IMG/VR virus record: IMGVR_UViG_2690316210_000010
Coordinates: 1-23,122 of that record
Origin: a virus
Taxonomy: Duplodnaviria > Heunggongvirae > Uroviricota > Caudoviricetes
Length of the DNA stretch: 23,122 bases
Reading direction: 5' to 3' (one strand)
In this document: in pieces, positions 236 to 17,146 of the stretch
Numbering within the stretch: the first letter of the stretch is position 1
Layout of the letters: every line of letters begins with the position of its first letter
Position numbers and translations under genes: made by a program
The notes under the pieces: model-generated
The model's database searches: none
The model's input: the letters and a program-made list of their open reading frames with translations, nothing else
Told to the model about the DNA's origin: nothing

Positions 236-328
236 TTTGTTTTAACCTCATTACAGATTTAAGGGTGAACAAATCCCTGCCATTGCTGGCATATAAAAAT
301 GAAACCGGATATTTATTACGTGGCTGCT

Positions 329-705: not shown

Positions 706-715
706 TATCGCGTCC

Positions 716-1273
716 TCAACAATGAATTTTGAGTAATTGCTCTACAGTCATATTTTTAATTGCGCCCCGGTTAACAAGAGTCCATCCCTGTTCTTCCAGA
801 TAAAACCGGAAAGTCTCCATGGTACAGACCCGTGCGCCATCAGGAACGGTTTCGGTGAATCTGATGTTGCCGCGTTCGTCGAAGTGAACAACCAGGGTGC
901 GGCCATCGCCTGGAATTATTTTGTCAGTGGGTGGGGTGTTATTCTGGCGCAGTTCGGCCTCCATGCGATCGAACTCAGCAATGTAGGCTTCTTTAAATGC
1001 AGCGGCTTTTTTGCCAGTGAATCCCATCACCAGGAAAACGAAGCCGTTTTTGGTGATTTGGTACATCGGGCGTTTTTCGCCTTTGGCGTCAGTGTAGGTG
1101 ACGTCCTCAAAATTGAGGGCGTTAAATTCAGGTGAGCATTCAGTATTTGCGATGGCACGTAACACATTGTCGTGACGCTTGCCAAAGAACTCTGCGATCG
1201 CAATAGACGTAGTGACAGCGCGACCATTTTCGATGGTTACGTCAGGGTGAGAAAGGGCAGGGATAGTAGCCAT
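716..1273 (-). CDS. Rha-family phage regulatory protein (antirepressor-like)
   Basis: Start set at MATIPALSHPDVTIENGRAVTTSIAIAEFFGKRHDNVLRAI with GAGGA Shine-Dalgarno; this N-terminal motif is typical of Rha/ORF6N proteins. The ORF track extends to 1570 but that extension overlaps the conserved DicF-flanking repeat. Gene is absent at the equivalent position of P2. Confidence 0.65.
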   Translation of the reverse strand: MATIPALSHPDVTIENGRAVTTSIAIAEFFGKRHDNVLRAIANTECSPEFNALNFEDVTYTDAKGEKRPMYQITKNGFVFLVMGFTGKKAAAFKEAYIAEFDRMEAELRQNNTPPTDKIIPGDGRTLVVHFDERGNIRFTETVPDGARVCTMETFRFYLEEQGWTLVNRGAIKNMTVEQLLKIHC

Positions 1274-1512
1274 GATGGCATCCTCGAGTGATAAGTTAAT
1301 TAACTCACCACCGAGGTTTTCCACGACCATAAGGGTGGTGAGACGTACAGGGGTGGAAATACCGGTCACTCGAGAACCCGGCCAGTCTTGCGACTGCCCT
1401 GCACATCCCACCATAATTTGAATGGAGCTGTGCATTACGCATAAAAAAACCGCTTCAGCGCGGCTATGCGCTCGAGTAACGTTCGGGTTTCCACGCCCGG
1501 CACCCGTTTTAT

Positions 1513-1810
1513 AAGGTGCAGGTGCACTATAATTCCACCCGTTCTGGTTTTCAATAGCTACATTCAACATTTTCTCTTTCCTTTCATCACCGAAGTGAAC
1601 TTTGTTGATGCGGTGCCTGGTGCCTCCAGGTGACGTTAACCAGTTAACAATTAACGCCGGATACAGGGAAACCCATAACCACCCGATACGGGGGAACTAA
1701 TCGCTTTTTAACTGTGCCGCGTGCGCTGAGCCGCATTCACCGCATCACAAAATTCACTTTAAAAAGGGCGGACATCAGCCAGCAATTAAACCGATGCCGC
1801 CAACTGGTAC
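1513..1810. repeat. Direct repeat copy 1 (~300 bp: dicF-dicB intergenic region plus DicF-like gene); near-identical to 3599..3895
   Basis: Visible alignment of 1513-1806 with 3599-3890 with only a few mismatches, diverging at the DicF 5' end; a third, more diverged copy lies at 9590-9800. Confidence 0.8.
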
Positions 1811-1816
1811 TTCACA
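1761..1816 (-). ncRNA. DicF-family sRNA variant (P0)
   Basis: Minus-strand sequence ends ...GGCGGCAUCGGUUUAAUUGCUGGCUGAUGUCCGCCCUUUUU, keeping the DicF GGCGG..CCGCC terminator and U-tail, but the 5' and internal sequence differ from canonical DicF. Ends are approximate. Confidence 0.4.
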
Positions 1817-1879
1817 CAGCAATGTCGTTATTTACAACCGGAGGCGCACTCCCACCATTTAAATTTAACAGACAAGACC

Positions 1880-2517
1880 GGTGATGCTGCCAACTTACTG
1901 ATTTAGTGTATGATGGTGTTTTTGAGGTGCTCCAGTGGCTTCTGTTTCTATCAGCTGTCCCTCCTGTTCAGCTACTGACGGGGTGGTGCGTAACGGCAAA
2001 AGCACTGCCGGACATCAGCGCTATCTCTGCTCTCACTGCCGTAAAACATGGCAACTGCAGTTCACTTACACCGCTTCTCAACCCGGTACGCACCAGAAAA
2101 TCATTGATATGGCCATGAATGGCGTTGGATGCCGGGCAACTGCACGCATTATGGGCGTTGGCCTCAACACGATTTTACGTCACTTAAAAAACTCAGGCCG
2201 CAGTCGGTAACCTCGCGCATACAGCCGGGCAGTGACGTCATCGTCTGCGCGGAAATGGACGAACAGTGGGGCTATGTCGGGGCTAAATCGCGCCAGCGCT
2301 GGCTGTTTTACGCGTATGACAGTCTCCGGAAGACGGTTGTTGCGCACGTATTCGGTGAACGCACTATGGCGACGCTGGGGCGTCTTATGAGCCTGCTGTC
2401 ACCCTTTGACGTGGTGATATGGATGACGGATGGCTGGCCGCTGTATGAATCCCGCCTGAAGGGAAAGCTGCACGTAATCAGCAAGCGATATACGCAGCGA
2501 ATTGAGCGGCATAACCT
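1880..2517 (+). mobile_element. IS1, 3'-truncated (left inverted repeat through mid-insB)
   Basis: Begins with the IS1 terminal repeat GGTGATGCTGCCAACTTACTGATTTAGTGTATGATGG; insA and insB recognisable; IS1 sequence stops after ...GAGCGGCATAACCT, where IS3-family sequence takes over. Confidence 0.85.
1935..2210 (+). CDS. insA: IS1 InsA
   Basis: 91-aa translation [42 protein letters not shown]... matches IS1 InsA. Confidence 0.9.
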
Positions 2518-2701
2518 TTTAGGACAATGGGTTACCGCCGCCAGAAAAGGGCTCGGTACTCCTGGTTCCCGCACGGTGGCTGAACTGGAATCTGAAATTC
2601 TGCAACTGCGTAAGGCGTTAAATGAAGCTCGCCTTGAGCGAGATATATTAAAAAAAGCAACAGCGTATTTTGCACAGGAGTCGCTGAAAAATACGCGTTA
2701 A
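2129..2701 (+). pseudogene. insB: Chimeric ORF: IS1 InsB (first ~129 aa) fused in frame to the C-terminal ~60 aa of an IS3-family OrfA
   Basis: Translation follows InsB up to ...[14 protein letters not shown], then continues [60 protein letters not shown], a typical IS3-family OrfA C-terminus. Confidence 0.75.
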
Positions 2702-3598
2702 TCGAACAATGGCGACAACAATTTCCCATTGAAGCGATGTGTCAGGTATTTGGTGTATCCAGGAGCGGTTATTACAACTGGGTACAGCATGAACCCTCAG
2801 ACAGAAAACAAAGTGATGAGCGGCTAAAACTGGAGATTAAGGTGGCACATATCCGCACTCGCGAAACATATGGAACCCGGCGGCTCCAGACGGAGCTGGC
2901 AGAGAATGGCATCATCGTTGGTCGTGACCGACTGGCACGTCTTCGTAAGGAGCTAAGGCTACGCTGTAAGCAGAAACGCAAGTTCAGAGCGACTACGAAC
3001 TCGAACCACAATCTGCCAGTTGCGCCAAATCTGCTGAACCAGACGTTCGCTCCTACAGCACCAAATCAGGTCTGGGTGGCGGACCTGACGTATGTTGCCA
3101 CACAGGAGGGATGGTTGTACCTCGCTGGCATCAAAGATGTTTATACGTGCGAAATTGTCGGCTACGCCATGGGAGAGCGCATGACAAAAGAGCTGACAGG
3201 TAAAGCCCTGTTTATGGCGCTCAGGAGCCAGCGCCCACCTGCCGGGCTAATCCACCACTCTGATCGAGGTTCACAGTACTGCGCATACGATTACCGGGTC
3301 ATACAGGAGCAGTCTGGTCTGAAAACATCAATGTCGCGTAAAGGTAACTGTTACGACAACGCTCCGATGGAAAGCTTCTGGGGAACGCTGAAAAATGAGA
3401 GCCTGAGCCACTATCGTTTTAATAACCGGGATGAAGCCATCTCAGTAATACGGGAATACATTGAGATTTTCTACAATCGTCAGCGTCGTCACTCTCGTCT
3501 GGGGAATATCTCCCCGGCAGCCTTCAGGGAAAAATATCATCAGATGGCTGCTTAAAAAAAGAACAAATGGTAGTGTCCGCTATTGCCAGTACACCTCA
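2518..3598 (+). mobile_element. IS3-family element (IS600/IS911-like), 5'-truncated, right end intact
   Basis: OrfA C-terminus, A-run slippery motif near 2647-2656, OrfB in the -1 frame, and a right end ...GTACACCTCA consistent with an IS3-family terminal CA. Exact IS name not verified. Confidence 0.7.
2737..3555 (+). CDS. IS3-family transposase OrfB (DDE catalytic domain); coordinates are the first in-frame ATG, natively expressed by -1 frameshift from OrfA
   Basis: 272-aa translation with DDE-transposase hallmarks (...WVADLTYV..., ...HHSDRGSQYCA..., ...CYDNAPMESFWGTLK...). Confidence 0.8.
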   Translation: MCQVFGVSRSGYYNWVQHEPSDRKQSDERLKLEIKVAHIRTRETYGTRRLQTELAENGIIVGRDRLARLRKELRLRCKQKRKFRATTNSNHNLPVAPNLLNQTFAPTAPNQVWVADLTYVATQEGWLYLAGIKDVYTCEIVGYAMGERMTKELTGKALFMALRSQRPPAGLIHHSDRGSQYCAYDYRVIQEQSGLKTSMSRKGNCYDNAPMESFWGTLKNESLSHYRFNNRDEAISVIREYIEIFYNRQRRHSRLGNISPAAFREKYHQMAA

Positions 3599-3895
3599 AA
3601 GGTGCAGGTGCACTATAATTCCACCCGTTCTGGTTTTCAATAGCTACATTCAACATTTTCTCTTTCCTTTCATCACCGAAGTGAACTTTGTTGATGCGGT
3701 GCCTGGTGCCTCCAGGTGACGTTAACCAGTTAACAATTAACGCCGGATACAGGGAAACCCATAACCACCCGATACGGGGGAACTAATCGCTTTTTAACTG
3801 TGCCGCGTGCGCTGAGCCGCATTCACCGCATCACAAAATTCACTTTAAAAAGGGCGGACATCAGCCAGCAATGAAACTGATGCCGCCAAAGGTAC
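3599..3895. repeat. Direct repeat copy 2 (dicF-dicB intergenic region plus DicF-like gene), abutting the IS3-family right end
   Basis: Aligns with 1513-1810; starts immediately after the IS3-family terminus. Confidence 0.8.
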
Positions 3896-3902
3896 CAATC
3901 AA
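3847..3902 (-). ncRNA. DicF-family sRNA variant (P1)
   Basis: Minus strand reads UUGGUACCUUUGGCGGCAUCAGUUUCAUUGCUGGCUGAUGUCCGCCCUUUUU: DicF-like terminator and U-tail with a divergent 5' region. Ends approximate. Confidence 0.4.
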
Positions 3903-4087
3903 CATGGAGTGTTGTGGCGTGGTTGTCACTTAAGCGTATGGTCAACCTGACAACCCGGTGTCCTCAACGGGGAAGGAATAACTCCGCCATACTTACCGCC
4001 GCGTCATTTCGCGTTGTGTGCCTGCTTTTAACCACGTCAGGCGAGGTGGTATCCTTCTTATCCCGAATAACCAAGAAGGAAATCTAT

Positions 4088-4288
4088 ATGACTAAAGAAG
4101 AATTTGTCTCTTATATTTTTGATAAAACGGTTGAAATGTATGCCGCTACTTACGGGTCCTGTAATCCTCTGAATAAACCAGAGGGAAAAGATGATTTCGA
4201 CAAAATTTACCGCTTCTTGGAGGACCGCTATATCAAAAGCTTAGAGGACGCAGGGATCAAATCCCCAGTGAAGTCACCATTGTCCTGA
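4088..4288 (+). CDS. Hypothetical small protein (66 aa) in the variable cassette, antisense to the dicB operon
   Basis: ATG at 4088 with AAGGA Shine-Dalgarno; 3' end overlaps the convergent gene 4257..4634 by 32 nt; no homolog recognised; P2 has an unrelated gene at the same position. Confidence 0.4.
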   Translation: MTKEEFVSYIFDKTVEMYAATYGSCNPLNKPEGKDDFDKIYRFLEDRYIKSLEDAGIKSPVKSPLS

Positions 4289-4634
4289 GAACTTGCAGAA
4301 CGTCATGATCATAACTTCCATCCAAACCGCGACGGCGAATTGCTTCTCGTATTACCGGAAGCAGTTCGCTGGAAATCTCGGTGCATATTTCACCTGATAA
4401 TACGCTTGGCTCAAGTGAGAATATTGGTGAACTTACGGTCTTGGTCTCGACAGTTTCAGAGTCAGTGCCAACATTATAAAGCTCAACGAAAGCGGTCTTG
4501 ATTTTCCGGGCCAGATCTTTTGCTGGCTCGCTTGCAATATCTTTCCCGATTTCTCGCAGCACAGAATGCAATGTATGAGCTGCTGTTTTCTGTACATCAG
4601 ACGGTAAATCTTTAAATTCCATCGTCAGCCTCAT
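4257..4634 (-). CDS. Hypothetical protein (125 aa), variable-cassette gene translationally coupled to the ydfA-like gene
   Basis: Start ATG overlaps the upstream stop (TGATG); first 11 aa MRLTMEFKDLP are identical to the P2 gene 10374..10787, after which the proteins are unrelated. Confidence 0.5.
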   Translation of the reverse strand: MRLTMEFKDLPSDVQKTAAHTLHSVLREIGKDIASEPAKDLARKIKTAFVELYNVGTDSETVETKTVSSPIFSLEPSVLSGEICTEISSELLPVIREAIRRRGLDGSYDHDVLQVLRTMVTSLGI

Positions 4635-4786
4635 CAGTCAGTGTTTCTGGCTAACCAGCAACGCGCGCCAGATTCGGTTTTAAACGTTTTGCTTTTGGTA
4701 TACGTCATGGCGGTAAACGTTCCATCCTGGTTAGGGAACACGCCGCACACCAGAGATTCGTTGTTGCCAAGATCGATAGTATCCAT
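4634..4786 (-). CDS. YdfA/YdaF-like small protein (~50 aa)
   Basis: MDTIDLGNNESLVCGVFPNQDGTFTAMTYTKSKTFKTE... with GAGG Shine-Dalgarno; first gene after the repressor-side promoter, as ydfA/ydaF in Qin/Rac; near-identical paralog at 10787..10939. Confidence 0.6.
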   Translation of the reverse strand: MDTIDLGNNESLVCGVFPNQDGTFTAMTYTKSKTFKTESGARCWLARNTD

Positions 4787-4966
4787 GCTGACCTCATTTC
4801 CCCTTAACGCCGGGGTGGCGGAACAAAAAACCTGCTGCATAGTTAAAGATTGAACCCTGCCGTCATGTTCTTACGCCTCGGGCTGGCTACTTAACCCCTG
4901 ACCACTGTCTGGTAACTCGAAGTATTGCCCTGCATTCTGTGGGGCGGGGTGGGTTGACGCCTGAAA

Positions 4967-5008
4967 CAATAGCATCATTATTTTTTGATGTAAATAGCAT
5001 CGCTATTG
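4967..5008. promoter_or_regulatory. Operator-like inverted repeats (OL-like) of the P1 immunity region
   Basis: AATAGCATCGCTATT (perfect inverted repeat) and a degenerate copy AATAGCATCATTATT; same motif recurs beside the repressor start at 6103-6143. Confidence 0.45.
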
Positions 5009-5024
5009 TTTTTGTTGGGGCAAG

Positions 5025-5050
5025 AAAAAACCACCCTAAGGTGGTTCTGT
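5025..5050 (-). terminator. Rho-independent terminator after the repressor-antitoxin-toxin operon
   Basis: Minus strand reads AACCACC-TTAG-GGTGGTT followed by TTTTTT, just downstream of the ParE-like gene. Confidence 0.6.
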
Positions 5051-5062
5051 CGGCGGGAATAA

Positions 5063-5353
5063 TTAACTGTTTTTGCCTGGATACTGTCTTCGAGAATGCA
5101 CAATATTTACTACTTCTATGCTTGATGCTGTTACTCGGTAAAGGATGATGTAGTTAGGATGAGTTACAATTTCACGAAGACCAAGAACTCGCTCGCTTGG
5201 AGGATACAGGTAAGGATGCTCTGTGAGCGGCAAAACGGATGTTTCAATTCGAATTTTCATTCTGCGTGCTGCCGCGGGATTTTCTTTAGCTATGTAGGCT
5301 ACGATCTGGCGCAAATCATCACGAGCAGATGGTAGCCATAAAACGGGTAACAT
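5063..5353 (-). CDS. ParE/RelE-superfamily type II toxin
   Basis: 96-aa translation MLPVLWLPSARDDLRQIVAYIAKENPAAARRMKIRIE...YIILYRVTASSIEVVNIVHSRRQYP fits the ParE pattern; start overlaps the upstream antitoxin stop (TAATG). Confidence 0.7.
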   Translation of the reverse strand: MLPVLWLPSARDDLRQIVAYIAKENPAAARRMKIRIETSVLPLTEHPYLYPPSERVLGLREIVTHPNYIILYRVTASSIEVVNIVHSRRQYPGKNS

Positions 5354-5547
5354 TATTCACCTCTGTGAGTTGCAGCAGCAATTTGGGCAATAATTTGTTC
5401 CATTTCCGCCATTACCTCATCATGCGGAATCGCCGGGCGGGGATCCGCGAGGCTTGCTGCTACTTTGGCCCGCAGCCATTCGTTGTAACTATTTTCTTGC
5501 TCAACTGTCTCAAATTCTGAAACCATTGGGGAAAGGACTGTACTCAT
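5353..5547 (-). CDS. Type II antitoxin (ParD/CC2985-like) paired with the ParE-like toxin
   Basis: 64-aa acidic protein ...YNEWLRAKVAASLADPRPAIPHDEVMAEMEQII...; AGGAG Shine-Dalgarno; translationally coupled upstream of the toxin. Confidence 0.55.
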   Translation of the reverse strand: MSTVLSPMVSEFETVEQENSYNEWLRAKVAASLADPRPAIPHDEVMAEMEQIIAQIAAATHRGE

Positions 5548-5566
5548 TTTACATATCTCCTCTGAT

Positions 5567-6067
5567 TTAGGCGCGACGGCCTTTTTGTGCAGCTAACCAC
5601 CGCGCAACCGTACGATCCATTGATTCTTTTTTATCTTTCATCTCCTGAAGCATGTGTTCTTGATCTTCTTTCGGAAAAGCTCTGAACGTATGGATTAAAT
5701 CTCGTTCCATCGGCTCTACGGCAAACGGTAGTTCATCCTCTGTTTGTTCTGTGTCTGCTGGTAATGCGACTATGTTATCTTGCTGTGGTTCTCGACAATA
5801 CATCCTTGCAATTTGCAGCAAATCTACCATGTCTGGCCTGATTGACTCAGGGGGAACTTTCAGTAAGCCAGCAAACTTTAGTACAGCCTCAAGGTTTAGT
5901 GGGGTTTGACCATTTAGGTAGTGACTTACCGCCCCTTGTGTTGAAAACCCCATAATTTCCGCCGCACGTTCCTGAGTCAATCCCAACTGAGATTTCTTTG
6001 CCATCCAGATTTCTTTCAGTCTTCTGGCGGCGTTGAGGTCGGTGTCTGACAATGATTTTCTTTTCAT
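5567..6067 (-). CDS. CI-like HTH repressor without a recognisable S24 peptidase domain
   Basis: Start chosen at MKRKSLSDTDLNAARRLKEIWMAKKSQLGLTQERAAEIMGF..., which resembles the lambda CI N-terminal domain; the C-terminus shows no Ser/Lys peptidase motif; divergent from the Cro-like gene. Confidence 0.7.
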   Translation of the reverse strand: MKRKSLSDTDLNAARRLKEIWMAKKSQLGLTQERAAEIMGFSTQGAVSHYLNGQTPLNLEAVLKFAGLLKVPPESIRPDMVDLLQIARMYCREPQQDNIVALPADTEQTEDELPFAVEPMERDLIHTFRAFPKEDQEHMLQEMKDKKESMDRTVARWLAAQKGRRA

Positions 6068-6080
6068 ACATCCAATTCTA

Positions 6081-6146
6081 ATAAGATTGCTAATCACTTT
6101 GAAATAGCATCACTATTTACTTTTAAAAATAACAGTGCTATTAATT
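6081..6146. promoter_or_regulatory. OR-like operator/promoter region between the divergent repressor and Cro-like genes (P1)
   Basis: Operator repeats AATAGCATCACTATT (6103-6117) and AATAACAGTGCTATT (6129-6143); candidate rightward promoter -35 TTTACT (6116-6121), 17-bp spacer, -10 TATTAA (6139-6144). Confidence 0.45.
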
Positions 6147-6178
6147 ATGCATTGGTAACACATCACATAGGGCGGATT

Positions 6179-6442
6179 ATGAATCTTGGAGAATATTTGC
6201 ATCATTTTCATATAACCCAGAGTTCATTTGCTGAGATTGTTGGCGCATCCCAAGGGATGGTCAGCCACGTTATAACGGGGCGTGCAAAACTTACAGGAGA
6301 AAAAATATTACGTTGGTGTGAAGCAACGGGATGGGTGGTGACCCCACATGAGATTGACAGTAAAACCTACCCCAACCCAACTGACGGCTTGCCTGCTGAG
6401 TTTCAGGCTAACACACAACCATCGGCGGGGGTTGATTCATGA
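6179..6442 (+). CDS. Cro/YdaS-like HTH regulator
   Basis: MNLGEYLHHFHITQSSFAEIVGASQGMVSHVITGRAKLTGEKILRWCEATGW...; divergent from the repressor; stop overlaps the next gene start. Confidence 0.6.
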   Translation: MNLGEYLHHFHITQSSFAEIVGASQGMVSHVITGRAKLTGEKILRWCEATGWVVTPHEIDSKTYPNPTDGLPAEFQANTQPSAGVDS

Positions 6443-6864
6443 AAATCAAGCATGAACACATCCGCATGGCGATGAAAGCCTGGGCGCATCCGGACGGTGA
6501 AAAAGTTCCGGCAGCTGAAATAACCAGGGTTTATTTCGAACTGGGAATGACGTTTCCGGTTCTGCATAACGACAGCAAGCACAACACGCTTTATCTCAAC
6601 ACCCAAAAGATTTTCCGTTGGCTGGATAAAGACACCCCTGACGCTGTTGAAAAAATTCAGGCGTTGTTACCTGCGATCGAAAGGGCAATGCCACCTCCGC
6701 TGGTGGCTCGAATGCGCAGCCACAGTTCAGCTTATTTTCGGGAACTGGTGGAGACGCATGAACGACTGGTGAGAGACGCTGATGATTTTGTCGCAGTGGC
6801 AATCGCCGGTTTCAATCAGATGAACCGTGGTGGCCCGGCAGGAAATGCTGTGGCAGTACATTGA
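6439..6864 (+). CDS. YdaT-like protein (141 aa)
   Basis: MKIKHEHIRMAMKAWAHPDGEK...; position after the Cro/YdaS-like gene and length match Rac YdaT; paralog at 11990..12415. Confidence 0.6.
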   Translation: MKIKHEHIRMAMKAWAHPDGEKVPAAEITRVYFELGMTFPVLHNDSKHNTLYLNTQKIFRWLDKDTPDAVEKIQALLPAIERAMPPPLVARMRSHSSAYFRELVETHERLVRDADDFVAVAIAGFNQMNRGGPAGNAVAVH

Positions 6865-6935
6865 CTGACAATAGCCATATCGAATCGCTCCCGGCAACTC
6901 GTGAGTAAAAAGATTCGGTATCAGAAGAGGTGAGT

Positions 6936-7976
6936 ATGGCTAACGCCTGGCTCAGATTATGGCATGACATGCCAAATGACCCTAAGTGGCGAACAATTGC
7001 CAGGGTGTCAGGGCAGCCAATTGCAACAGTGATGGCAGTGTATATCCACCTCCTGGTGAGCGCGTCACGAAATGTCACGCGAGGTCACATTGATGTCACG
7101 ACAGAAGATTTGGCAAGTGCGCTCGACGTGACAGAAGAGGTAATTGATTCAATTTTGCAGACGATGCAGGGGCGGGTACTTGATGGTGATTTAATCACTG
7201 GATGGGAAAAACGCCAGGTGCTTAAAGAGGACAACGGCAATATTTCGCAAACCGCAAAATCTCCTGCAGAGCGCAAGAGGGCGCAGCGAGAGAGGGAAAG
7301 AAAGCGGGAACAAAATGGCGATTGTCACGGCGCGTCACGAAATGTCACGCACATGTCACGACGAGTCACGACAGATACAGATAAAGATACAGATAAAGAA
7401 GATCAAAACACTATGGTCCATGGCGTAAAAAACGCCACGAACCAGGCAGGGGATGTTCAGACCGTCAATCCTGGTCAGCCAGCAGGCTCGACACCGGAAG
7501 CCGATTCGGGCGCTGTGCAGCAGGTGATGACCGCAAGGCCGGAGCAATCACTCCAACTGCAGCAGCCTGAAGCCGATTCCGCCATTCAGCGGGAAGCCGA
7601 TCGGGTAGCCCCGGAAAACACCGGGCAGCCTGTGGGACGAGTGGATTATCCGGATGTGTTCGAACAGGTCTGGCGGGAATACCCGTTGCGTGCCGGGGCA
7701 AACCCGAAGAAATCCGCATTCAGTGCCTGGAAGGCCAGATTGCGCGAGGGGGTGCCACCAGAGACCATGCTGGATGGTGTGAGGCGTTACGCGAGATACC
7801 TGGCGGCGACCGGGAAAGCGGGAACGGAATTTGTTCAGCGAGCGACGACGTTTTTTGGGCCGGACCGGAATTTTGAAAACCCCTGGTTGCTCCCGGTAAG
7901 CGGCACGAACAACCAGCGTTGTGTGAATCATATTTCTGAACCGGATACCGAAATTCCGCCGGGATTCAGGGGGTGA
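6936..7976 (+). CDS. Replication initiator (lambda O / YdaU-like) with embedded origin iterons
   Basis: ATG 6936 with GAGG Shine-Dalgarno; precedes the DnaC-like gene; contains GTCACG iteron arrays; C-terminal 20 aa identical to the otherwise unrelated P2 initiator. Confidence 0.6.
   Translation: MANAWLRLWHDMPNDPKWRTIARVSGQPIATVMAVYIHLLVSASRNVTRGHIDVTTEDLASALDVTEEVIDSILQTMQGRVLDGDLITGWEKRQVLKEDNGNISQTAKSPAERKRAQRERERKREQNGDCHGASRNVTHMSRRVTTDTDKDTDKEDQNTMVHGVKNATNQAGDVQTVNPGQPAGSTPEADSGAVQQVMTARPEQSLQLQQPEADSAIQREADRVAPENTGQPVGRVDYPDVFEQVWREYPLRAGANPKKSAFSAWKARLREGVPPETMLDGVRRYARYLAATGKAGTEFVQRATTFFGPDRNFENPWLLPVSGTNNQRCVNHISEPDTEIPPGFRG
7061..7099. repeat. Iteron set 1: four GTCAC(G) repeats at 10-11-bp phasing inside the O-like gene
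   Basis: GTCAC at 7064, 7074, 7084 and 7095. Confidence 0.6.
7324..7410. repeat. Iteron set 2: five GTCACG repeats at 10-11-bp phasing followed by an AT-rich tract; putative replication origin
   Basis: GTCACG at 7324, 7334, 7344, 7355 and 7365, then ATACAGATAAAGATACAGATAAAGAAGATCAAAACA. Confidence 0.6.
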
Positions 7977-7982
7977 TGTGGC

Positions 7983-8729
7983 ATGAAAAACATTGCGGCA
8001 GCCGGGGTTCTTGAACGTATTCACAGACTTGCACCACAGGGGGCGGTTCCACCGTACCGGACGGTGGAGGAGTGGCGGGAATGGCAACTTGCTGAAGGAC
8101 GAAAACGCAGCGAGGAGATTAACCGCCAGAATCGCCAGTTGCGGGTGGAAAAAATCCTGAATCGTTCGGGCATCCAGCCTCTGCACAGCAAATGCTCGTT
8201 TGCGAATTATCAGGTGCAGAACGACGGGCAAAAATACGCGCTGAGCCAGGCCAAATCCATAGCTGACGAACTGATGACCGGGTGCACGAATTTTGTGTTC
8301 AGCGGTAAAACCGGCACCGGGAAAAATCACCTTGCAGCGGCGATGGGTAACTGGCTGATGGCGAAGGGGCGCAGCGTGATTATCGTCACCGTGTCTGATG
8401 TCATGAGCGTGTTGCATGACAGCTACGACAACGGCAAATCCGGTGAAAAATTTTTACAGGAGCTTTGCGGGGTTGATTTGCTGGTCCTGGATGAAATAGG
8501 CATTCAGCGGGAGACGAAAAACGAGCAGGTGGTATTGCACCAGATAATTGATCGCCGGACAGCATCACTGTGCAGTGTCGGGATGTTAACAAACCTGAAT
8601 CATGCCGCAATGAGTACGCTTCTTGGTGAGAGGATTATGGACCGCATGACCATGAACGGTGGTCGATGGGTGACGTTTAACTGGGATAGCTGGCGTTCAA
8701 ATGTCAGCTTTCCGGGAGTTGTGAAGTAA
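7983..8729 (+). CDS. DnaC-like AAA+ helicase loader (YdaV-like, 248 aa)
   Basis: Walker A FSGKTGTGKNHLAAAMG and Walker B DLLVLDEIG; about 97% identical at protein level to 13407..14153. Confidence 0.8.
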   Translation: MKNIAAAGVLERIHRLAPQGAVPPYRTVEEWREWQLAEGRKRSEEINRQNRQLRVEKILNRSGIQPLHSKCSFANYQVQNDGQKYALSQAKSIADELMTGCTNFVFSGKTGTGKNHLAAAMGNWLMAKGRSVIIVTVSDVMSVLHDSYDNGKSGEKFLQELCGVDLLVLDEIGIQRETKNEQVVLHQIIDRRTASLCSVGMLTNLNHAAMSTLLGERIMDRMTMNGGRWVTFNWDSWRSNVSFPGVVK

Positions 8730-9095
8730 TTTTTGTTGAACCATGACAGCGTTCTGTACTTCAGGGGCCAGCTTGTCAAAAGTGACGTTCATCGGATCTG
8801 ATTCAGTCTCAACCGGGACAAAGGAAGCAGACTCCTCATCCCAGCGGTTTTCCTGCATATATTCAGCATCCCAGGAATCGAGGGCAGGGCGGGGTATACC
8901 GGGTTTATCCTCGCAAACAAGAAATTTATAAGCGCAGTCCTGAGCTGCAGGGAATTGCTCCAGAAATTGCCAATGAAATTTTGCGCGTGCGCGACGCTCA
9001 TCACCGGCTTCAATGGCAGTGGCCACCGCAACAGCGCTATCTTCTTTTATGGCCTGTTCATCAGGAATAGCAGCGCAAATAAAGACCTTACTCAT
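8697..9095 (-). CDS. Prophage early-left-operon hypothetical protein (132 aa), possibly YdfE-like by position; 3' end overlaps the P1 DnaC-like gene
   Basis: Minus-strand ORF MSKVFICAAIPDEQAIKEDSAVAVATAIEAGDERRARAKFHWQFLEQFPAAQD...; last ~11 codons lie antisense inside the DnaC-like 3' end, so the C-terminus may be junction-derived. Confidence 0.5.
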   Translation of the reverse strand: MSKVFICAAIPDEQAIKEDSAVAVATAIEAGDERRARAKFHWQFLEQFPAAQDCAYKFLVCEDKPGIPRPALDSWDAEYMQENRWDEESASFVPVETESDPMNVTFDKLAPEVQNAVMVQQKLLHNSRKADI

Positions 9096-9190
9096 TTTGT
9101 TTTAACCTCATTACAGATTTCAGGGTGAACGAATCCCTGCCATTGCTGGCATTTTTAATCCGTTGGTATGGTGTTAATATGGCTGGAAGG

Positions 9191-9379
9191 TTATCCAGCC
9201 GGTGTTTCGTTATTCAGGTACAGCGATACTTTTTTTAGCGGGAGGCATTCACCAGAAATTTTTTGCTCGTCTCTTGCCTGGAGGCAGGATTCTTTACTTG
9301 CATAAATTCCGGTAATCACATTCTGTGATTCACCCGTTATAAGAAAAACCGTCATCATCAGTGCAAATGCTGAAGTCAT
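9191..9379 (-). CDS. Small membrane protein downstream of dicB (YdfD-like)
   Basis: MTSAFALMMTVFLITGESQNVITGIYASKESCLQARDEQKISGECLP...; start overlaps the dicB-like stop (ATGA); paralog of 329..520. Confidence 0.5.
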   Translation of the reverse strand: MTSAFALMMTVFLITGESQNVITGIYASKESCLQARDEQKISGECLPLKKVSLYLNNETPAG

Positions 9380-9564
9380 TGACGTTCTCCGAAAATACCA
9401 AGTTCAAGAAGAGCAATTCGGGAAAGTATGGAATTATCATTGAGCAGATAAGGCTCATATTTCCTCATATTAATGGCATCTTCAGTAAACTCCCGGTTAC
9501 TGAGCAGAACACCAATATCAAAACAACCTTCAGACGTATTAACGTTTGGTAATAACGTTTCCAT
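9376..9564 (-). CDS. dicB: DicB-like cell division inhibitor with a divergent C-terminal half
   Basis: N-terminal 35 aa METLLPNVNTSEGCFDIGVLLSNREFTEDAINMRK resemble DicB; the C-terminal half differs from the P0 copy. Confidence 0.65.
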   Translation of the reverse strand: METLLPNVNTSEGCFDIGVLLSNREFTEDAINMRKYEPYLLNDNSILSRIALLELGIFGERQ

Positions 9565-9742
9565 TATCGCGTCCTCAACAATGAATTTTGTGATGCAGTG
9601 CCTGGTGCCTCCAGGTGACGTTAACCAGTTAACAATTAACGCCGGGTTAGTTGATGCTCGTTACGCCCGTAAAATACCGCCTTACTGCTTTAACTGTTCC
9701 GCGTGCGCATAGCCGCATTCACCGCATCACAAAATTCACTTT

Positions 9743-9800
9743 AAAAAGGGCGGCAGAGCAGTCACGGAGTAAAACTGATACCGCCAAATGTCACCAGAAA
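9743..9800 (-). ncRNA. dicF: DicF sRNA (canonical-type)
   Basis: Minus strand reads UUUCUGGUGACAUUUGGCGGUAUCAGUUUUACUCCGUGACUGCUCUGCCGCCCUUUUU, matching my recollection of E. coli DicF apart from about one base; located between the ydfA-like/variable genes and dicB as in Qin. Confidence 0.8.
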
Positions 9801-10135
9801 ATTGATAACAGAGGGCGTTGTAGCGGGGTTGTCACTTAAGCGTATGGTCAACCTGACAACCCGGTGCATTTTCTGGAGCAATGGAGGAAACCCCAGCCAT
9901 ACTTACCGCCGCGCCATTTCGCGGAGTGCCACAACCGGAAGCGCACGGTCGAACTAAATTTAACGACACCGTACAGAGAGACCAATTTCGCCGTGCGCTT
10001 TCGCGTTATGCCCTGACTTTTCAGGGACATATCCTTTCAGTAAGCTGTCAGTGCCGGATGCTCACCCGTGTCCGGCGCACGCACTCCACCTGACCCGTGG
10101 AGAACTCCTTAATTACCAACCCTCAGGAGGGTGAA

Positions 10136-10414
10136 ATGGATAAAAAGCAAATTGAGGCCCTGCAATCTATTATTGAAGAACAAGATGAAGCTATCAGGAT
10201 TCTTTCATATCGCACTGATATGATACTAAATATGCTTTCTGCATTAACGGCTGCGCTTGGTGGTACAAAAACAAACGTATACCGCGAAGTTGTTATTCAA
10301 CAGATAGATAAATTTGAAAAAACCATACCAGGTATTAATGCTCATCTTGCAGAACAAGAGAAAGACCATGCTCTTATGGCAATTTCTTCAGTAGCTCTCC
10401 CGAAAGTTGAGTAG
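10136..10414 (+). CDS. Hypothetical protein (92 aa) in the P2 variable cassette, antisense to the dicB operon
   Basis: ATG 10136 with AGGAGG Shine-Dalgarno; MDKKQIEALQSIIEEQDEAIRILSYRTD...; unrelated to the P1 gene at 4088..4288; 3' end overlaps the convergent gene by 41 nt. Confidence 0.4.
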   Translation: MDKKQIEALQSIIEEQDEAIRILSYRTDMILNMLSALTAALGGTKTNVYREVVIQQIDKFEKTIPGINAHLAEQEKDHALMAISSVALPKVE

Positions 10415-10939: not shown

Positions 10940-11124
10940 GCTGACCTCATTTCCCCTTAACGCCGGGGTAGCGGAACAAAAACCTGCTGCATAGTTATTA
11001 AAGTTGAACCCTGCCGTCATGTTCTTACGCCTCGGGCTGGCTACTTAACCCCTGACCACTGCCTGGTAACTCGAAGTATTGCCCTGCATTCTGTGGGGCG
11101 GGGTGGGTTGGTATGAAAAGAAGG

Positions 11125-11167
11125 ATACCCATAGGTATTTAAAAAGTAAATACCCATGGGTAAATTT
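11125..11167. promoter_or_regulatory. OL-like operators with candidate leftward early promoter (P2)
   Basis: Palindromes ATACCCATAGGTAT (11125-11138) and TACCCATGGGTA (11151-11162); on the minus strand a TTTACC / 16-17 bp / TTAAAT promoter-like arrangement overlaps them. Confidence 0.45.
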
Positions 11168-11204
11168 TTGCGGTGTCTTAACTGGTGACTAGTTGTTTGG
11201 TGAG

Positions 11205-11624
11205 CTATGATGCGTTTTGTGCTTTCTTTTTACGGATTTCTTCGTAGATCATATTGTAATACTGTTTTTTCTCTTCAAGAGTTTTTAATAATTTATCCGC
11301 TTCACTTTCTGGCAGTTCGTCTAAGAGATCTAAAAAAATACGTTGTCGTGGCGTTAGAACCCTTGTTTCATAACTGGAGGCTGTGTTCGTTGATGATGAA
11401 ACGATACCATCCATCCATCCCCGGGGTAACCCAAAGGACTCTTCGATAATCTCCACCATATCATCAGCGATCCGTTTTTTTCCCTTTTTCCCCTCTGGGT
11501 ACAACATTCTTGATACATAAGAAGGCTCGCGCCCGATCTTTCTGGCCACGTTAACCGCTTTACCATCGCATTTCTCATCACGAATTTTGATGAGTTGCTG
11601 TCGTCTAAATTCATATTTGTCCAT
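11205..11624 (-). CDS. HTH repressor of the P2 immunity region (RacR/DicA-like position)
   Basis: Start chosen at MDKYEFRRQQLIKIRDEKCDGKAVNVARKIGREPSYVSRML... (HTH); divergent from the Cro-like gene; flanked by operator-like repeats. Confidence 0.6.
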   Translation of the reverse strand: MDKYEFRRQQLIKIRDEKCDGKAVNVARKIGREPSYVSRMLYPEGKKGKKRIADDMVEIIEESFGLPRGWMDGIVSSSTNTASSYETRVLTPRQRIFLDLLDELPESEADKLLKTLEEKKQYYNMIYEEIRKKKAQNAS

Positions 11625-11701
11625 AGGTAAATAATAGATGCGATTACCGCAAGGTAAACAACCTGTGGGTATTGACATTTGTTTACCTGTGGGTATTCTT
11701 T
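11623..11701. promoter_or_regulatory. OR-like operators and candidate rightward promoter for the P2 Cro-like gene
   Basis: Repeated TGGGTA-containing half-sites (ACCTGTGGGTAT twice, CATAGGTAAAT); -35 TTGACA (11673-11678), 16-bp spacer, -10 TATTCT (11695-11700). Confidence 0.45.
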
Positions 11702-11724
11702 GCTGTGTTTACTAAGGAGTAGCT

Positions 11725-12006
11725 ATGGAAGAATTAAGAATATTTCTCAATTCTCTTTCGTCAGATGAACAGCGTATGTTTGCATGCGAGTGTGGTACCA
11801 GCATCGGTTATCTAAGAAAGGCATTGAGTAAAGGTCAAGTGTTAGGGGCATCGTTATGTGTCCTTATTGAGCGAGCCAGTAATGGTGAAGTTACACGTCA
11901 GCAACTAAGGCCTTTTGATTGGATGAATATTTGGCCCGAGCTGGAAGATACCAAAACGTTAACACAACCACTTTCTAGGAGCTTGATTCATGAAAATCAA
12001 GCATGA
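11725..12006 (+). CDS. Cro/YdaS-like HTH regulator (P2)
   Basis: AAGGAG Shine-Dalgarno; ...ECGTSIGYLRKALSKGQ...TRQQLRPFDW...; 3' end overlaps the YdaT-like start. Confidence 0.6.
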   Translation: MEELRIFLNSLSSDEQRMFACECGTSIGYLRKALSKGQVLGASLCVLIERASNGEVTRQQLRPFDWMNIWPELEDTKTLTQPLSRSLIHENQA

Positions 12007-12415: not shown

Positions 12416-12437
12416 AAGCACGGTGTTCGGGGGTTTT

Positions 12438-13400: not shown

Positions 13401-13406
13401 CGTGTC

Positions 13407-14153: not shown

Positions 14154-14174
14154 TTTTGTCCGGAGGAAATTTTA

Positions 14175-16609: not shown

Positions 16610-16617
16610 GAGTGACC

Positions 16618-16858: not shown

Positions 16859-17146
16859 ATGAAAATCGAAGAATTGCGTGAAATTTTTAGTGAAAATGGC
16901 CTCTATGCTGTGCGCGTTGAGAATGGAGCGATTGTCAGCCATTGCCGCATTAGATGTTTGCAATCTCAACAAAGGAAGAGCGGTGCTGTGTTATTTTATT
17001 TTTGTAATGGACTTCTGACGGACGGTTTTATTTTGCGTGAGGACGAATTTGTCACATCATTACGGGTTTTGAAAGAGATTGGTTTTAAGGCTGGTTTTCT
17101 GCTTTTGCTGAAGAATAAACTCATCTACAATCTTGAGCAGGATTGA
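16859..17146 (+). CDS. Hypothetical protein (95 aa) at the Rem-equivalent position
   Basis: ATG 16859 with GGAAGGA Shine-Dalgarno; sits between hok and the DUF1367 gene as rem does in Qin; no sequence recognition. Confidence 0.4.
   Translation: MKIEELREIFSENGLYAVRVENGAIVSHCRIRCLQSQQRKSGAVLFYFCNGLLTDGFILREDEFVTSLRVLKEIGFKAGFLLLLKNKLIYNLEQD

What the first reader, a model, noticed from the sequence alone, without database searches (positions are those of the whole stretch)
4967..6146. P1 and P2 immunity regions are heteroimmune: different repressors and different operator motifs in an otherwise homologous backbone
P1 repressor operators are AATAGC-N3-GCTATT-type; P2 operators are TACCCATGGGTA-type (11125-11167, 11623-11701). 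The repressors share no obvious similarity, and neither has a recognisable S24 autocleavage domain, implying antirepressor-type rather than RecA-cleavage induction. The ydfA-like gene, its ~170-bp leader, the YdaT-like and DnaC-like genes are homologous between the two.
Basis: partly seen in the sequence, partly recalled or inferred. Interest (0 to 1): 0.5.

Follow-up and report, generated by a model that had tools for sequence, protein, structure and literature searches.

The report
Two heteroimmune prophage repressor switches
The window carries two lambda-like prophage on/off switches side by side, each with its own repressor and binding sites in an otherwise shared gene backbone; this is an ordinary, well-understood kind of phage mosaicism, with the small twist that the two repressors share a short tail domain instead of the usual self-cleaving one.

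Summary
Self-comparison shows two immunity cassettes with no detectable DNA similarity, P1 at 4957-6431 and P2 at 11111-11982. Both sit in a backbone that is 78-97% identical: a ydfA-like gene with its leader, ydaT, and the end of the O-like gene plus a dnaC-like gene.

Each cassette has a leftward repressor gene and a rightward cro-like gene. Each has its own palindromic sites in an OR cluster and an OL cluster. P1 uses AATAGC-N3-GCTATT and P2 uses TACC-N4-GGTA. In 11 related loci from other bacteria and phages, including phage mEp043, each motif accompanies its repressor's N-terminal domain and never the other's. Heteroimmunity is therefore well supported, though inferred.

Neither repressor has a peptidase S24 domain. 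They are not wholly unrelated: both end in a homologous DicA-like helical tail of about 50 aa (hhalign 96.8%). Close relatives of the P2 N-terminal domain do carry S24, so this is domain swapping.

P1 is a paaR-paaA-parE-type three-gene module like that of CP-933P. Induction by an antirepressor is plausible but unproven. A 67.5%-identical homolog of Rem, the DicA antirepressor, lies at 16859-17146.

This is a new member of a known kind and of modest interest.

The parts
4957..6431 (.). P1 immunity cassette, the segment with no detectable similarity to P2
   Evidence: Self-BLAST homology to P2 stops at 4956 and resumes at 6432. The alignment shows a sharp break after ...GGGGTGGGTTG. The same cassette is 99.3% identical in a different prophage backbone in E. 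coli FDAARGOS_944.
4968..5007 (.). P1 OL: two operators, AATAGCATCATTATT (4968-4982) and AATAGCATCGCTATT (4993-5007), 25 bp apart
   Evidence: Motif scan. Half-sites are conserved and the central 3 bp vary in the 79%-identical O145:H28 locus and in distant loci L013 and L015.
4966..4994 (-). P1 PL-like promoter, TTTACA-17-TATTGT with a TG extension, reading left into the ydfA-like operon. Each hexamer overlaps an operator.
   Evidence: Promoter scan. It occupies the position of dicBp in Qin (PMC10448788).
5021..5048 (-). Hairpin plus T-run that likely terminates the repressor-paaA-parE operon
   Evidence: RNA fold -15.1 kcal/mol, z -2.6. The stem GAACCACCU/GGGUGGUUU is followed by UUUCUU. The hairpin is also present in the O145 locus.
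5063..5353 (-). parE-like toxin gene (96 aa)
   Evidence: Pfam ParE_toxin 1.8e-17. PDB 5cw7_B, ParE2, E 3.4e-36.
5353..5547 (-). paaA-like antitoxin gene (64 aa)
   Evidence: Pfam PaaA2 3e-23. PDB 3zbe, PaaA2, E 1.6e-23.
5567..6067 (-). P1 repressor, 166 aa: lambda-CI-like N-terminal HTH domain, disordered linker, DicA-like helical C-terminal module; no S24
   Evidence: Pfam HTH_3 8e-9 and no S24. Lambda CI N-terminal domain in the PDB, E 2.9e-9. AF2 model is all-helical with a linker at 93-118. The start at ATG 6067 follows the homologs and RefSeq annotation.
6080..6142 (.). P1 OR: AATAGCATCACTATT (6103-6117), AATAACAGTGCTATT (6128-6142), and a weak third site AATAAGATTGCTAAT (6080-6094, 3 mismatches, read by eye)
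   Evidence: The same two-site arrangement with 25-bp spacing occurs upstream of every P1-type N-terminal-domain repressor examined.
6075..6103 (-). P1 PRM-like promoter TTCAAA-17-TAGAAT. The -10 ends 7 nt before the ATG, so the repressor mRNA is probably leaderless.
   Evidence: Promoter scan. Leaderless cI and paaR2 are documented in PMC8630535. Leaderless status here is an inference.
6179..6442 (+). P1 cro-like gene (87 aa, HTH_3 type)
   Evidence: Pfam HTH_3 4e-4. phrog_35 8e-17. No BLASTP hit to the P2 cro-like protein.
6432..6449 (.). YdaT operator OM, TTGATTCATGAAAATCAA, at the cro/ydaT junction; also the right edge of the P1 cassette
   Evidence: Exact match to the footprinted TTGATT-N6-AATCAA of CP-933P YdaT (PMC9986795). 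P1/P2 homology resumes at 6432.
6439..6864 (+). P1 ydaT (CII analog)
   Evidence: Pfam YdaT_toxin. PDB 8bt1, YdaT, E 3e-70. 75% identical to P2 YdaT.
11111..11982 (.). P2 immunity cassette
   Evidence: Bounded by the homology blocks. 100% identical in E. coli BR1220 and present in 824 of 5426 complete E. coli genomes.
11126..11162 (.). P2 OL: TACCCATAGGTA (11126-11137) and TACCCATGGGTA (11151-11162), 25 bp apart. A weak PL-like TTTACT-17-TATCCT overlaps them on the minus strand (read by eye, below the tool's threshold).
   Evidence: The same pair with the same spacing lies downstream of P2-type N-terminal-domain repressors in Salmonella, Pantoea, Yersinia and phage mEp043. The terminator-like call at this position is just the two palindromes.
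11205..11624 (-). P2 repressor, 139 aa: Xre-fold HTH N-terminal domain of the mEp043-cI type, short linker, DicA-like C-terminal module; no S24
   Evidence: No Pfam hit. phrog_5736, annotated 'transcriptional regulator', 6e-70. AF2 pLDDT 81.7, all-helical. Best Foldseek match is Rep of the Rep-Ant complex 5D50, followed by Xre-type HTH proteins. N-terminal domain 65% identical to mEp043 cI. All homologs start at MDKYE.
11645..11695 (.). P2 OR: TACCGCAAGGTA (11645), AACCTGTGGGTA (11660), TACCTGTGGGTA (11684)
   Evidence: The same three-site geometry, about 15-16 and 24 bp apart, is seen in L005, L007, L009 and L022.
11631..11699 (.). Divergent promoters: PRM-like TTTACC-16-TATTAT (minus strand, 11658..11631; -10 ends 7 nt before the ATG) and PR-like TTGACA-16-TATTCT (plus strand, 11672-11699, 10 of 12)
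   Evidence: Promoter scan.
11725..12006 (+). P2 cro-like gene (93 aa, YdaS type)
   Evidence: Pfam YdaS_toxin 9e-6, below the cut-off. phrog_35 5e-23. Rac YdaS E 3e-5.
11983..12000 (.). YdaT operator OM, identical to the P1 copy; right edge of the P2 cassette
16859..17146 (+). rem-like gene (95 aa), candidate antirepressor, in the right arm of the P2 prophage after hok/sok
   Evidence: tblastn with K-12 Rem: 67.5% identity over 80 aa, E 2e-29. Rem derepresses DicA-controlled dicBp 165-fold (PMC10448788). rem homologs in PPompW prophages and phage mEp460 sit with 135-aa repressor genes of DicA length, annotated dicA and 'repressor protein C2'.

Best explanation
The window holds two lambdoid (Rac/Qin/CP-933P-type) immunity regions of different specificity set in a shared early-gene backbone.

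Architecture. In each region a leftward repressor gene and a rightward cro-like gene diverge from an OR cluster of palindromic operators that overlaps PR and PRM. A second pair of the same operators (OL) overlaps the leftward PL promoter. PL drives the ydfA-like/DicF/dicB operon.

Specificity. The P1 repressor has a lambda-CI-like HTH and reads AATAGC-N3-GCTATT. The P2 repressor has an mEp043-cI-type HTH and reads TACC-N4-GGTA. Each repressor should therefore silence only its own prophage (heteroimmunity).

Repressor tails. Both repressors have a DicA-like helix-turn-long-helix tail of about 50 aa where lambda CI has its S24 autoprotease domain. They therefore cannot be inactivated by RecA-stimulated self-cleavage. 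The tail most likely mediates oligomerisation and OL-OR cooperation.

P1 operon. The P1 repressor heads a paaR-paaA-parE-type three-gene operon. This probably makes loss of the immunity region toxic.

Switching. Switching is expected to occur through a Rem/Gifsy-type antirepressor, or through spontaneous bistable flipping, or both.

Shared elements. The cassette edges are the left side of OL and the YdaT (CII-analog) operator at the cro/ydaT junction. That operator is identical in both copies, so the CII-like step is probably shared.

Shown here: anatomy, motif statistics, domain content, homologies and motif/domain co-occurrence. Inferred: actual binding, immunity, leaderless translation, the role of the tail and the induction route.
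For: - Cassette limits and backbone identity.
- Operator motifs enriched and confined to OL/OR.
- Promoters overlapping the operators.
- TACC-N4-GGTA accompanies the P2-type N-terminal domain in 6 distinct contexts (L001, L005, L007, L009, L010, L022), whether the C-terminus is S24 or DicA-like. AATAGC-type sites accompany the P1-type N-terminal domain in L002, L003, L013, L015 and L020. There are no cross-occurrences and none in Rac; Qin (L017) has one isolated 1-mismatch AATAGC-type match away from its immunity region.
- P1 N-terminal domain is homologous to the lambda CI N-terminal domain. P2 N-terminal domain is 65% identical to mEp043 cI and has an Xre fold.
- No S24 domain and all-helical models.
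- Shared C-terminal module.
- PaaA2, ParE2 and YdaT homologs, with an exact YdaT operator.
- Rem homolog.
- Literature: PaaR2 lacks the peptidase motif, does not respond to mitomycin C and octamerises (PMC8630535). DicA/Rem (PMC10448788). Gifsy antirepressors (PMC3121763).
Against: - No binding or immunity experiment exists for either repressor type.
- P1 PR and P2 PL fall below the promoter tool's threshold and were read by eye.
- The third P1 OR site has 3 mismatches.
- The DicA NCBIfam hits are partial and far below the family cut-off (32 and 24 bits against 101). They show only a shared module, not DicA orthology.
- No LexA box lies near the rem-like gene. [quoted passage not shown] An SOS-linked antirepressor circuit is therefore not established.
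- The two halves of the window may not be naturally adjacent. Their coexistence in one cell is not guaranteed.
Confidence: 0.8

Rival explanations
1. Induction works specifically through an antirepressor. The Rem-like protein (16859-17146), or the Ash/pRha protein at 716-1570, binds the non-cleavable repressors and removes them from OL/OR, as Rem does for DicA and GfoA/GfhA do for the Gifsy repressors.
For: - Both repressors lack S24 and carry the DicA-like tail.
- The Rem homolog is 67.5% identical to Rem.
- Rem derepresses DicA-controlled dicBp 165-fold.
- rem travels with DicA-length short repressors in PPompW prophages and phage mEp460.
- The best structural neighbour of the P2 repressor is the Rep of a solved Rep-Ant complex.
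Against: - The target specificity of Rem is unknown, and neither repressor shares DicA's DNA-binding domain.
- No LexA box lies upstream of rem.
- In Qin, switching is independent of rem and recA.
- The Foldseek hit is weak (E 1.2e-3, TM 0.47).
- The P1 prophage has no rem gene of its own in the window.
Confidence: 0.4
2. There is no dedicated induction pathway. These are defective prophage remnants whose CI/Cro-like switches are simply bistable. They flip spontaneously or under stress, and the paaA-parE module only stabilises the P1 region.
For: - The CP-933P PaaR2/YdaS switch is bistable, does not respond to mitomycin C and is addictive (PMC8630535).
- DicA/DicC flips spontaneously, independent of RecA and Rem.
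- The P1 element is a truncated, IS-ridden remnant in Shigella sonnei genomes.
Against: - An intact rem homolog is retained.
- Functional phages (Tritos, mEp460) use the same class of short repressor, so an induction route must exist at least in intact relatives.
Confidence: 0.35
3. The repeated palindromes are not repressor operators. They could be chance repeats, terminators, or sites for Cro-like or host proteins only.
For: - The pair at 11126-11162 is scored as terminator-like.
- Cro-like proteins probably do share these sites, as in lambda and CP-933P.
Against: - Enrichment over shuffles.
- The sites overlap the promoter hexamers.
- Half-sites are conserved while spacers and flanks vary.
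- The motifs strictly co-occur with the matching repressor N-terminal domain across genera and C-terminal domain types.
Confidence: 0.04
4. One or both repressors are RecA-cleavable LexA/CI-type proteins whose S24 domain was missed or lies in another frame.
For: Close N-terminal-domain homologs of the P2 repressor are S24 proteins.
Against: - No S24 hit at E up to 0.1.
- The proteins are 139 and 166 aa, with helical tails of about 50 aa.
- Only about 43 bp separate the P2 stop codon from OL, and paaA follows the P1 repressor 20 bp later. There is no room for a hidden domain.
Confidence: 0.02

Closest known systems
CP-933P/Sp12 immunity region of E. coli O157:H7 (paaR2-paaA2-parE2 / ydaS-ydaT; Jurenas et al. 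2021, PMC8630535)
   Same: - Same gene order: PL/OL, then parE-paaA-repressor, OR, cro-like gene, ydaT.
- PaaA2 and ParE2 homologs (E 1.6e-23 and 3.4e-36).
- YdaT homolog with the exact footprinted operator.
- The repressor lacks S24.
- The promoter geometry suggests a leaderless repressor mRNA.
   Different: - The P1 repressor is 166 aa with a lambda-CI-like N-terminal domain, whereas PaaR2 is about 14 kDa and starts MQKKE.
- The operators are AATAGC-N3-GCTATT rather than the GTTTAGTAA half-site.
- Direct sequence comparison with PaaR2 could not be made.
Qin DicA/DicC switch with the Rem antirepressor (Ragunathan et al. 2023, PMC10448788)
   Same: - A short, non-cleavable repressor controls a ydfA-DicF-dicB operon from a PL-like promoter.
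- Both window repressors share DicA's C-terminal module.
- A rem homolog sits after hok/sok, as in Qin.
   Different: - The DNA-binding domains and operators are unrelated to DicA's.
- The cro-like proteins differ from DicC.
- Action of Rem on these repressors is untested.
Phage mEp043 cI and related S24 repressors of Salmonella, Pantoea and Edwardsiella
   Same: - The P2 N-terminal domain is 64-82% identical to theirs.
- The TACC-N4-GGTA operators have the same OR (three sites) and OL (two sites, 25-26 bp apart) geometry.
   Different: Those proteins are 221-242 aa with a Peptidase_S24 C-terminal domain. P2 has the 50-aa DicA-like tail instead.
Gifsy-1/2/3 repressors and LexA-controlled antirepressors (Lemire et al. 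2011, PMC3121763)
   Same: - Small (about 136 aa) CI-like repressors without a cleavage motif.
- Induction by trans-acting antirepressors, including cross-talk between prophages.
   Different: - No LexA box or GfoA-like gene was identified here.
- Homology to the Gifsy repressors was not tested.
Classical lambdoid imm regions (lambda, 434, 21)
   Same: - A swappable module running from OL to the cro/cII junction in a mosaic backbone.
- The P1 N-terminal domain is homologous to the lambda CI N-terminal domain (E 2.9e-9).
- Operators are spaced about 23-25 bp apart.
   Different: - No S24 domain.
- rexAB is replaced by a toxin-antitoxin pair in P1 and by nothing in P2.
- CII is replaced by YdaT.
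- There is no N gene.

Membership tests
Lambdoid CI/Cro immunity region | Divergent repressor and cro-like genes separated by a short region with repeated palindromic operators that overlap two back-to-back promoters | tested here: met
   This holds for both cassettes. P1 PR was read by eye only.
Lambdoid CI/Cro immunity region | A second cluster of the same operators (OL) at a leftward promoter beyond the repressor operon | tested here: met
   P1 sites at 4968 and 4993 with TTTACA-17-TATTGT. P2 sites at 11126 and 11151, where the promoter is weak and was read by eye.
Lambdoid CI/Cro immunity region | The repressor binds its own operators and confers immunity | not testable with these tools
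   Only indirect evidence: motif and N-terminal domain co-occur in 11 loci.
LexA/CI S24 autocleaving repressors | C-terminal Peptidase_S24 domain with a Ser/Lys dyad and an Ala-Gly cleavage site | tested here: not met
   No PF00717 hit at E up to 0.1. The C-termini are 50-aa helical hairpins in the AF2 models.
paaR-paaA-parE three-component toxin-antitoxin module | PaaA2-family antitoxin and ParE2-family toxin | tested here: met
   Pfam PaaA2 3e-23 and ParE_toxin 1.8e-17. PDB 3zbe and 5cw7.
paaR-paaA-parE three-component toxin-antitoxin module | A regulator gene immediately upstream on the same strand, acting as the prophage repressor | tested here: met
   Repressor 5567-6067, paaA 5353-5547 and parE 5063-5353 all lie on the minus strand, with a terminator only after parE. 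Co-transcription is inferred.
paaR-paaA-parE three-component toxin-antitoxin module | The regulator is homologous to PaaR2 | not tested
   The PaaR2 sequence was not recovered. The P1 tail is 56% identical (E 1e-21) to the 133-aa regulator next to a paaA-parE pair in O157:H7 FRIK2069.
DicA (NCBIfam NF007257) | Full-length match above the curated cut-off | tested here: not met
   Only the C-terminal 50-57 residues match. Scores are 32.4 and 24.5 bits against a cut-off of 101.
Non-cleavable repressors controlled by antirepressors (DicA/Gifsy class) | Short repressor without a cleavage domain, plus an antirepressor gene elsewhere in the prophage | tested here: met
   Repressors of 139 and 166 aa without S24. 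Rem homolog at 16859-17146 in the P2 prophage only.
Non-cleavable repressors controlled by antirepressors (DicA/Gifsy class) | The antirepressor physically inactivates the repressor, with antirepressor expression under LexA or another signal | tested here: inconclusive
   Binding cannot be tested here. No LexA box with up to 1 mismatch lies near rem.
YdaT (CII analog) | YdaT fold family and a TTGATT-N6-AATCAA operator at the cro/ydaT junction | tested here: met
   Pfam PF06254. PDB 8bt1 E 3e-70. Exact sites at 6432 and 11983.

The most novel reading that the evidence does not exclude
The shared DicA-like C-terminal module may be a common handle on otherwise heteroimmune repressors. It could let one Rem-type antirepressor, encoded only by the P2 prophage, derepress both prophages at once. 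It could also let the two repressors form mixed oligomers. Either way, switches with separate DNA specificity would be coupled. The same module appears to have repeatedly replaced the S24 domain on several DNA-binding domains (P1-type, P2-type, PaaR-type, double-HTH fusions). That would make the induction mode a swappable part independent of immunity specificity.
Probability: 0.2. Interest if true: 0.5.

Novelty: new member of a known kind. Interest (0 to 1): 0.3.

Why it matters
The result assigns a function and cognate operators to two uncharacterised repressor types.

- The P2 repressor is annotated 'hypothetical protein', yet its immunity cassette is present in about 15% of complete E. coli genomes.
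- The P1 type (exact protein sequence) is indexed in about 6000 blocks of the assembly collection; the named records read are Shigella sonnei. It heads a toxin-antitoxin operon.

Both repressors keep cell-division inhibitors (DicB/DicF-type) and replication genes of cryptic prophages silent. This is relevant to prophage cross-talk and to stress-induced filamentation.

Conceptually it is a clean textbook case of immunity-cassette swapping. Beyond that, it shows that the DNA-reading half and the tail of these repressors (presumed here to govern oligomerisation and induction) recombine independently.

Tried and rejected
- A profile search with the C-terminal module alone in the large protein database returned only short fragments and gave no picture of domain partners.
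- The PaaR2 sequence, needed for direct comparison, was not recovered. None of the fetched homologs starts MQKKE, and the O157:H7 locus I retrieved carries a different 133-aa regulator.
- A LexA-box scan found nothing convincing near rem or the operators.
- The roughly 170-nt leader between PL and the ydfA-like gene has no unusual RNA structure (z +1.28), and no Rfam family lies inside either cassette.
- The terminator-like call at 11126-11162 is simply the two OL palindromes pairing with each other.
- RacR and DicA were considered as orthologs of the P2 repressor. RacR gives no BLAST hit, and DicA matches only in the tail.
- The 157-aa and 176-aa upstream-extended ORFs were rejected as the real repressor starts. 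All homologs begin at MDKYE and MKRKS, and the extensions overlap the operators.
Full report
**What is in the window.** ORF listing, database matches and annotated relatives show two early regions of Rac/Qin/CP-933P-type lambdoid prophages, one after the other.

- The left element (P1) matches Shigella sonnei genomes at 99.3-100%. Its repressor sequence is indexed in about 6000 blocks of the assembly collection, and the named hits are S. sonnei.
- The right element (P2, 8739-16690) is 99.25% identical to a prophage inserted next to ompW in E. coli BR1220.

**Checking the observation.** Self-BLAST finds three blocks of P1/P2 homology around the finding:

- 4603-4956 with 10756-11110, 94%. This is the DUF1391/ydfA-like gene plus its upstream leader. 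The leader is about 170 bp if the gene starts at the YdfA-equivalent methionine at 4786.
- 6432-6853 with 11983-12404, 78% (ydaT).
- 7914-8733 with 13338-14157, 97% (the last 20 codons of the replication-initiator gene plus the dnaC-like gene).

No alignment was found between 4957-6431 and 11111-11982. The break on the left is sharp, directly after ...GGGGTGGGTTG.

At the protein level the two repressors give no BLASTP hit to each other, and neither do the two cro-like proteins. YdaT is 75% identical, the DnaC-like protein 96% and DUF1391 92%.

**Operators.**

- AATAGC-N3-GCTATT with up to 2 mismatches occurs 6 times against 0.81 expected; no shuffle of 100 reaches 6. Four of these sites form two pairs, at 4968/4993 and 6103/6128, each 25 bp apart.
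- A third, weak site at 6080 (3 mismatches) is visible by eye and lies 23 bp from the next.
- The P2 motif is better written TACC-N4-GGTA. All four exact matches in the window, and one site with a single mismatch, lie at 11126/11151 and 11645/11660/11684.
- Neither motif occurs in the other cassette.

**Promoters.** The promoter scan places hexamers on top of these sites.

- P1 PL-like TTTACA-17-TATTGT (4994..4966, minus strand) and P1 PRM-like TTCAAA-17-TAGAAT (6103..6075, minus strand).
- P2 PR-like TTGACA-16-TATTCT (11672-11699) and P2 PRM-like TTTACC-16-TATTAT (11658..11631, minus strand).
- P1 PR (TTTACT-17-TATTAA, 6116-6144) and P2 PL (TTTACT-17-TATCCT) fall below the tool's threshold and are my own reading.
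- In both cassettes the PRM -10 ends 7 nt before the repressor ATG and there is no clear Shine-Dalgarno sequence. This suggests leaderless mRNAs, as shown for lambda cI and paaR2. It is an inference.

**Are the motifs really the cognate operators?** I fetched loci that encode distant relatives of each DNA-binding domain.

Relatives of the P2 N-terminal domain were checked in Salmonella, Pantoea, two Yersinia contigs, phage mEp043 and E. coli BR1220.
- Exact TACC-N4-GGTA sites sit just upstream of the repressor gene in all six: two strong sites 39-40 bp apart, with a weaker one between them.
- In all but one Yersinia contig, a further pair 25-26 bp apart lies downstream.
- This holds whether the protein ends in an S24 domain (Salmonella, Pantoea, mEp043) or in the short tail (Yersinia, E. 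coli).

Relatives of the P1 N-terminal domain were checked in O145:H28, FDAARGOS_944, S. sonnei 53G and two metagenomic lineages.
- AATA(G/A)C-N3-G(C/T)TATT sites appear in the same two places with 24-26 bp spacing.
- The half-sites are conserved while the central triplet and the flanks vary.
- A sixth locus, from Salmonella diarizonae (N-terminal domain 47% identical), has only degenerate 2-mismatch versions of the motif.

There is no cross-occurrence, and Rac has neither motif. Qin has one isolated 1-mismatch AATAGC-type match far from its immunity region. This is strong comparative evidence for two separate recognition specificities. Heteroimmunity is therefore well supported, but it remains a prediction.

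**The repressors.**

- P1 (5567-6067, 166 aa) has an HTH_3 domain and is homologous to the N-terminal domain of lambda CI (E 2.9e-9).
- P2 (11205-11624, 139 aa) has no Pfam hit and is annotated 'hypothetical protein' in RefSeq. It matches phrog_5736, annotated 'transcriptional regulator', at 6e-70.
- The P2 AF2 model (pLDDT 81.7) has a four-helix N-terminal domain. Its best structural neighbours are the Rep of the Salmonella phage Rep-Ant complex 5D50 and Xre-type HTH proteins.
- Neither protein has Peptidase_S24. Both models are all-helical, with a disordered linker followed by a short helix and a long helix of about 31-33 residues. There is no coding room downstream for a hidden domain.

First, the repressors are not wholly dissimilar. 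Both C-termini hit the C-terminal part of the DicA model (NF007257, 7e-8 and 1.9e-5) and phrog_5736. DicA's tail aligns to both by BLASTP (3.6e-6 and 3.2e-5). A profile-profile comparison of the two tail families gives 96.8% probability, E 2.5e-10 over 45 columns.

Second, the domains recombine freely.
- The P2 N-terminal domain is 64-82% identical to the N-terminal domains of 221-242-aa S24 repressors.
- The P1 N-terminal domain occurs with a P2/DicA-like tail in Salmonella diarizonae.
- The P1 tail occurs on 132-133-aa regulators with a third type of HTH and third and fourth operator types in the same backbone.
- Proteins of 244-255 aa carry both HTH domains in tandem.

**The P1 operon and the shared CII-like step.**

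- Downstream of the P1 repressor lie a PaaA2-family antitoxin (Pfam 3e-23; PDB 3zbe 1.6e-23) and a ParE2-family toxin (PDB 5cw7 3.4e-36). A hairpin plus T-run follows them, just before OL.
- This is the three-gene arrangement described for paaR2-paaA2-parE2 in CP-933P. There the regulator is the CI analog, YdaS the Cro analog and YdaT the CII analog. That switch is bistable, does not respond to mitomycin C and is addictive (PMC8630535).
- YdaT of P1 matches the crystallised CP-933P YdaT (E 3e-70).
- The footprinted YdaT operator TTGATT-N6-AATCAA (PMC9986795) is present without mismatch at 6432-6449 and 11983-12000. That is exactly where P1/P2 homology resumes.
- The swappable cassette therefore runs from the left edge of OL to the YdaT site. 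The CII-like function probably acts on both elements.

**How are the switches flipped?** RecA-stimulated autocleavage is excluded by domain content.

The antirepressor idea has precedent for this class.
- Gifsy repressors are inactivated by LexA-controlled antirepressors, including across prophages (PMC3121763).
- DicA is antagonised by Rem (PMC10448788).
- The window encodes a Rem homolog at 16859-17146 (67.5% identity, E 2e-29), after hok/sok as in Qin.
- In PPompW prophages and phage mEp460, rem also travels with 135-aa repressor genes of DicA length (annotated dicA and 'repressor protein C2').
- A second candidate is the Ash/pRha protein at 716-1570, which overlaps Rfam C4 and IsrK matches.

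Against a simple SOS-antirepressor circuit:
- No LexA box lies near rem.
- In Qin, derepression also occurs without rem or recA, and mitomycin C has no effect.
- Rem's specificity for these two repressors is unknown.

I put the antirepressor route at about 0.4. Purely spontaneous or stress-driven bistability is at about 0.35. The two are not mutually exclusive.

**Verdict.**
- The repressors share a C-terminal module.
- The absence of S24 reflects domain swapping rather than a separate lineage.

The system is a new member of a well-known kind: lambdoid immunity cassettes, specifically the CP-933P/Qin class of non-cleavable repressors. Its interest is modest. It assigns function and operators to two common but unstudied repressor types, and it gives a tidy example of independent shuffling of the DNA-binding and tail domains.

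Noticed in passing
window 8738/8739: The window changes source abruptly. Bases 1-8738 match Shigella sonnei 53G at 99.3-100%. Bases 8739-16690 match the ompW-site prophage of E. coli BR1220 at 99.25%. The join lies 9 bp after the dnaC-like stop and falls inside the 5' part of a truncated recE-like exonuclease gene (ORF 8697-9095, minus strand). There is no homology at the junction, so it is either an illegitimate deletion or fusion, or an assembly or construction artefact.
   Followed up: partly
window 17168-22663: A tandem repeat with a 2180-bp period, about 2.5 copies at 98-99% identity. Each unit holds a DUF968-like gene split into two ORFs plus an IS2-type transposase ORF (301 aa).
   Followed up: partly
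window 1513-1803 and 3599-3889: A 291-bp direct repeat (99.3%) flanks an IS1 fragment (1880-2517) and an IS3-family element (2518-3599). It probably interrupts the DicF region of the P1 left operon, since no Rfam DicF hit is found there.
   Followed up: partly
window 716-1570 (-), 1331-1418 (-), 1443-1519 (-): Rfam C4 antisense RNA (76.7 bits) and IsrK (61.2 bits) lie inside the 5' part of an Ash/pRha-domain ORF in the P1 left arm. The layout resembles the phage P1 c4-ant and Gifsy-1 IsrK-anrP antirepressor control modules.
   Followed up: partly
window 6930-7976 and 12423-13400: The two replication-initiator-like proteins are unrelated except for their identical last 20 residues (…RCVNHISEPDTEIPPGFRG). 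These abut the 96%-identical DnaC-like loader genes. The tail may be the loader-docking segment, preserved across a module swap.
   Followed up: no
L013-L016 (metagenomic loci), proteins P0133-P0143: Repressors of 244-255 aa carry two different HTH domains in tandem (P1-type then PaaR-type) before the shared tail. Only the P1-type operator motif was scanned for and found in their OR/OL regions. Operators for the second HTH domain were not looked for.
   Followed up: partly
window 9748-9799 (-), 16284-16459 (+), 15540-16226 (+): DicF sRNA (77 bits) lies in the P2 left operon. A hok/sok module (sok 117 bits) lies in the P2 right arm. A 228-aa ORF at 15540-16226 corresponds to the gene annotated 'epoxyqueuosine reductase QueH' in the BR1220 prophage.
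   Followed up: no
L024 (E. coli PS2Canimalfeces12) and L027 (O157:H7 FRIK2069): The same backbone, with the same left break point after GGGGCGGGGTGG, carries further immunity types. These have 132-133-aa regulators with the P1-type tail, paaA-parE, and different operator palindromes. The OL-proximal junction therefore looks like a recurrent recombination point.
   Followed up: partly
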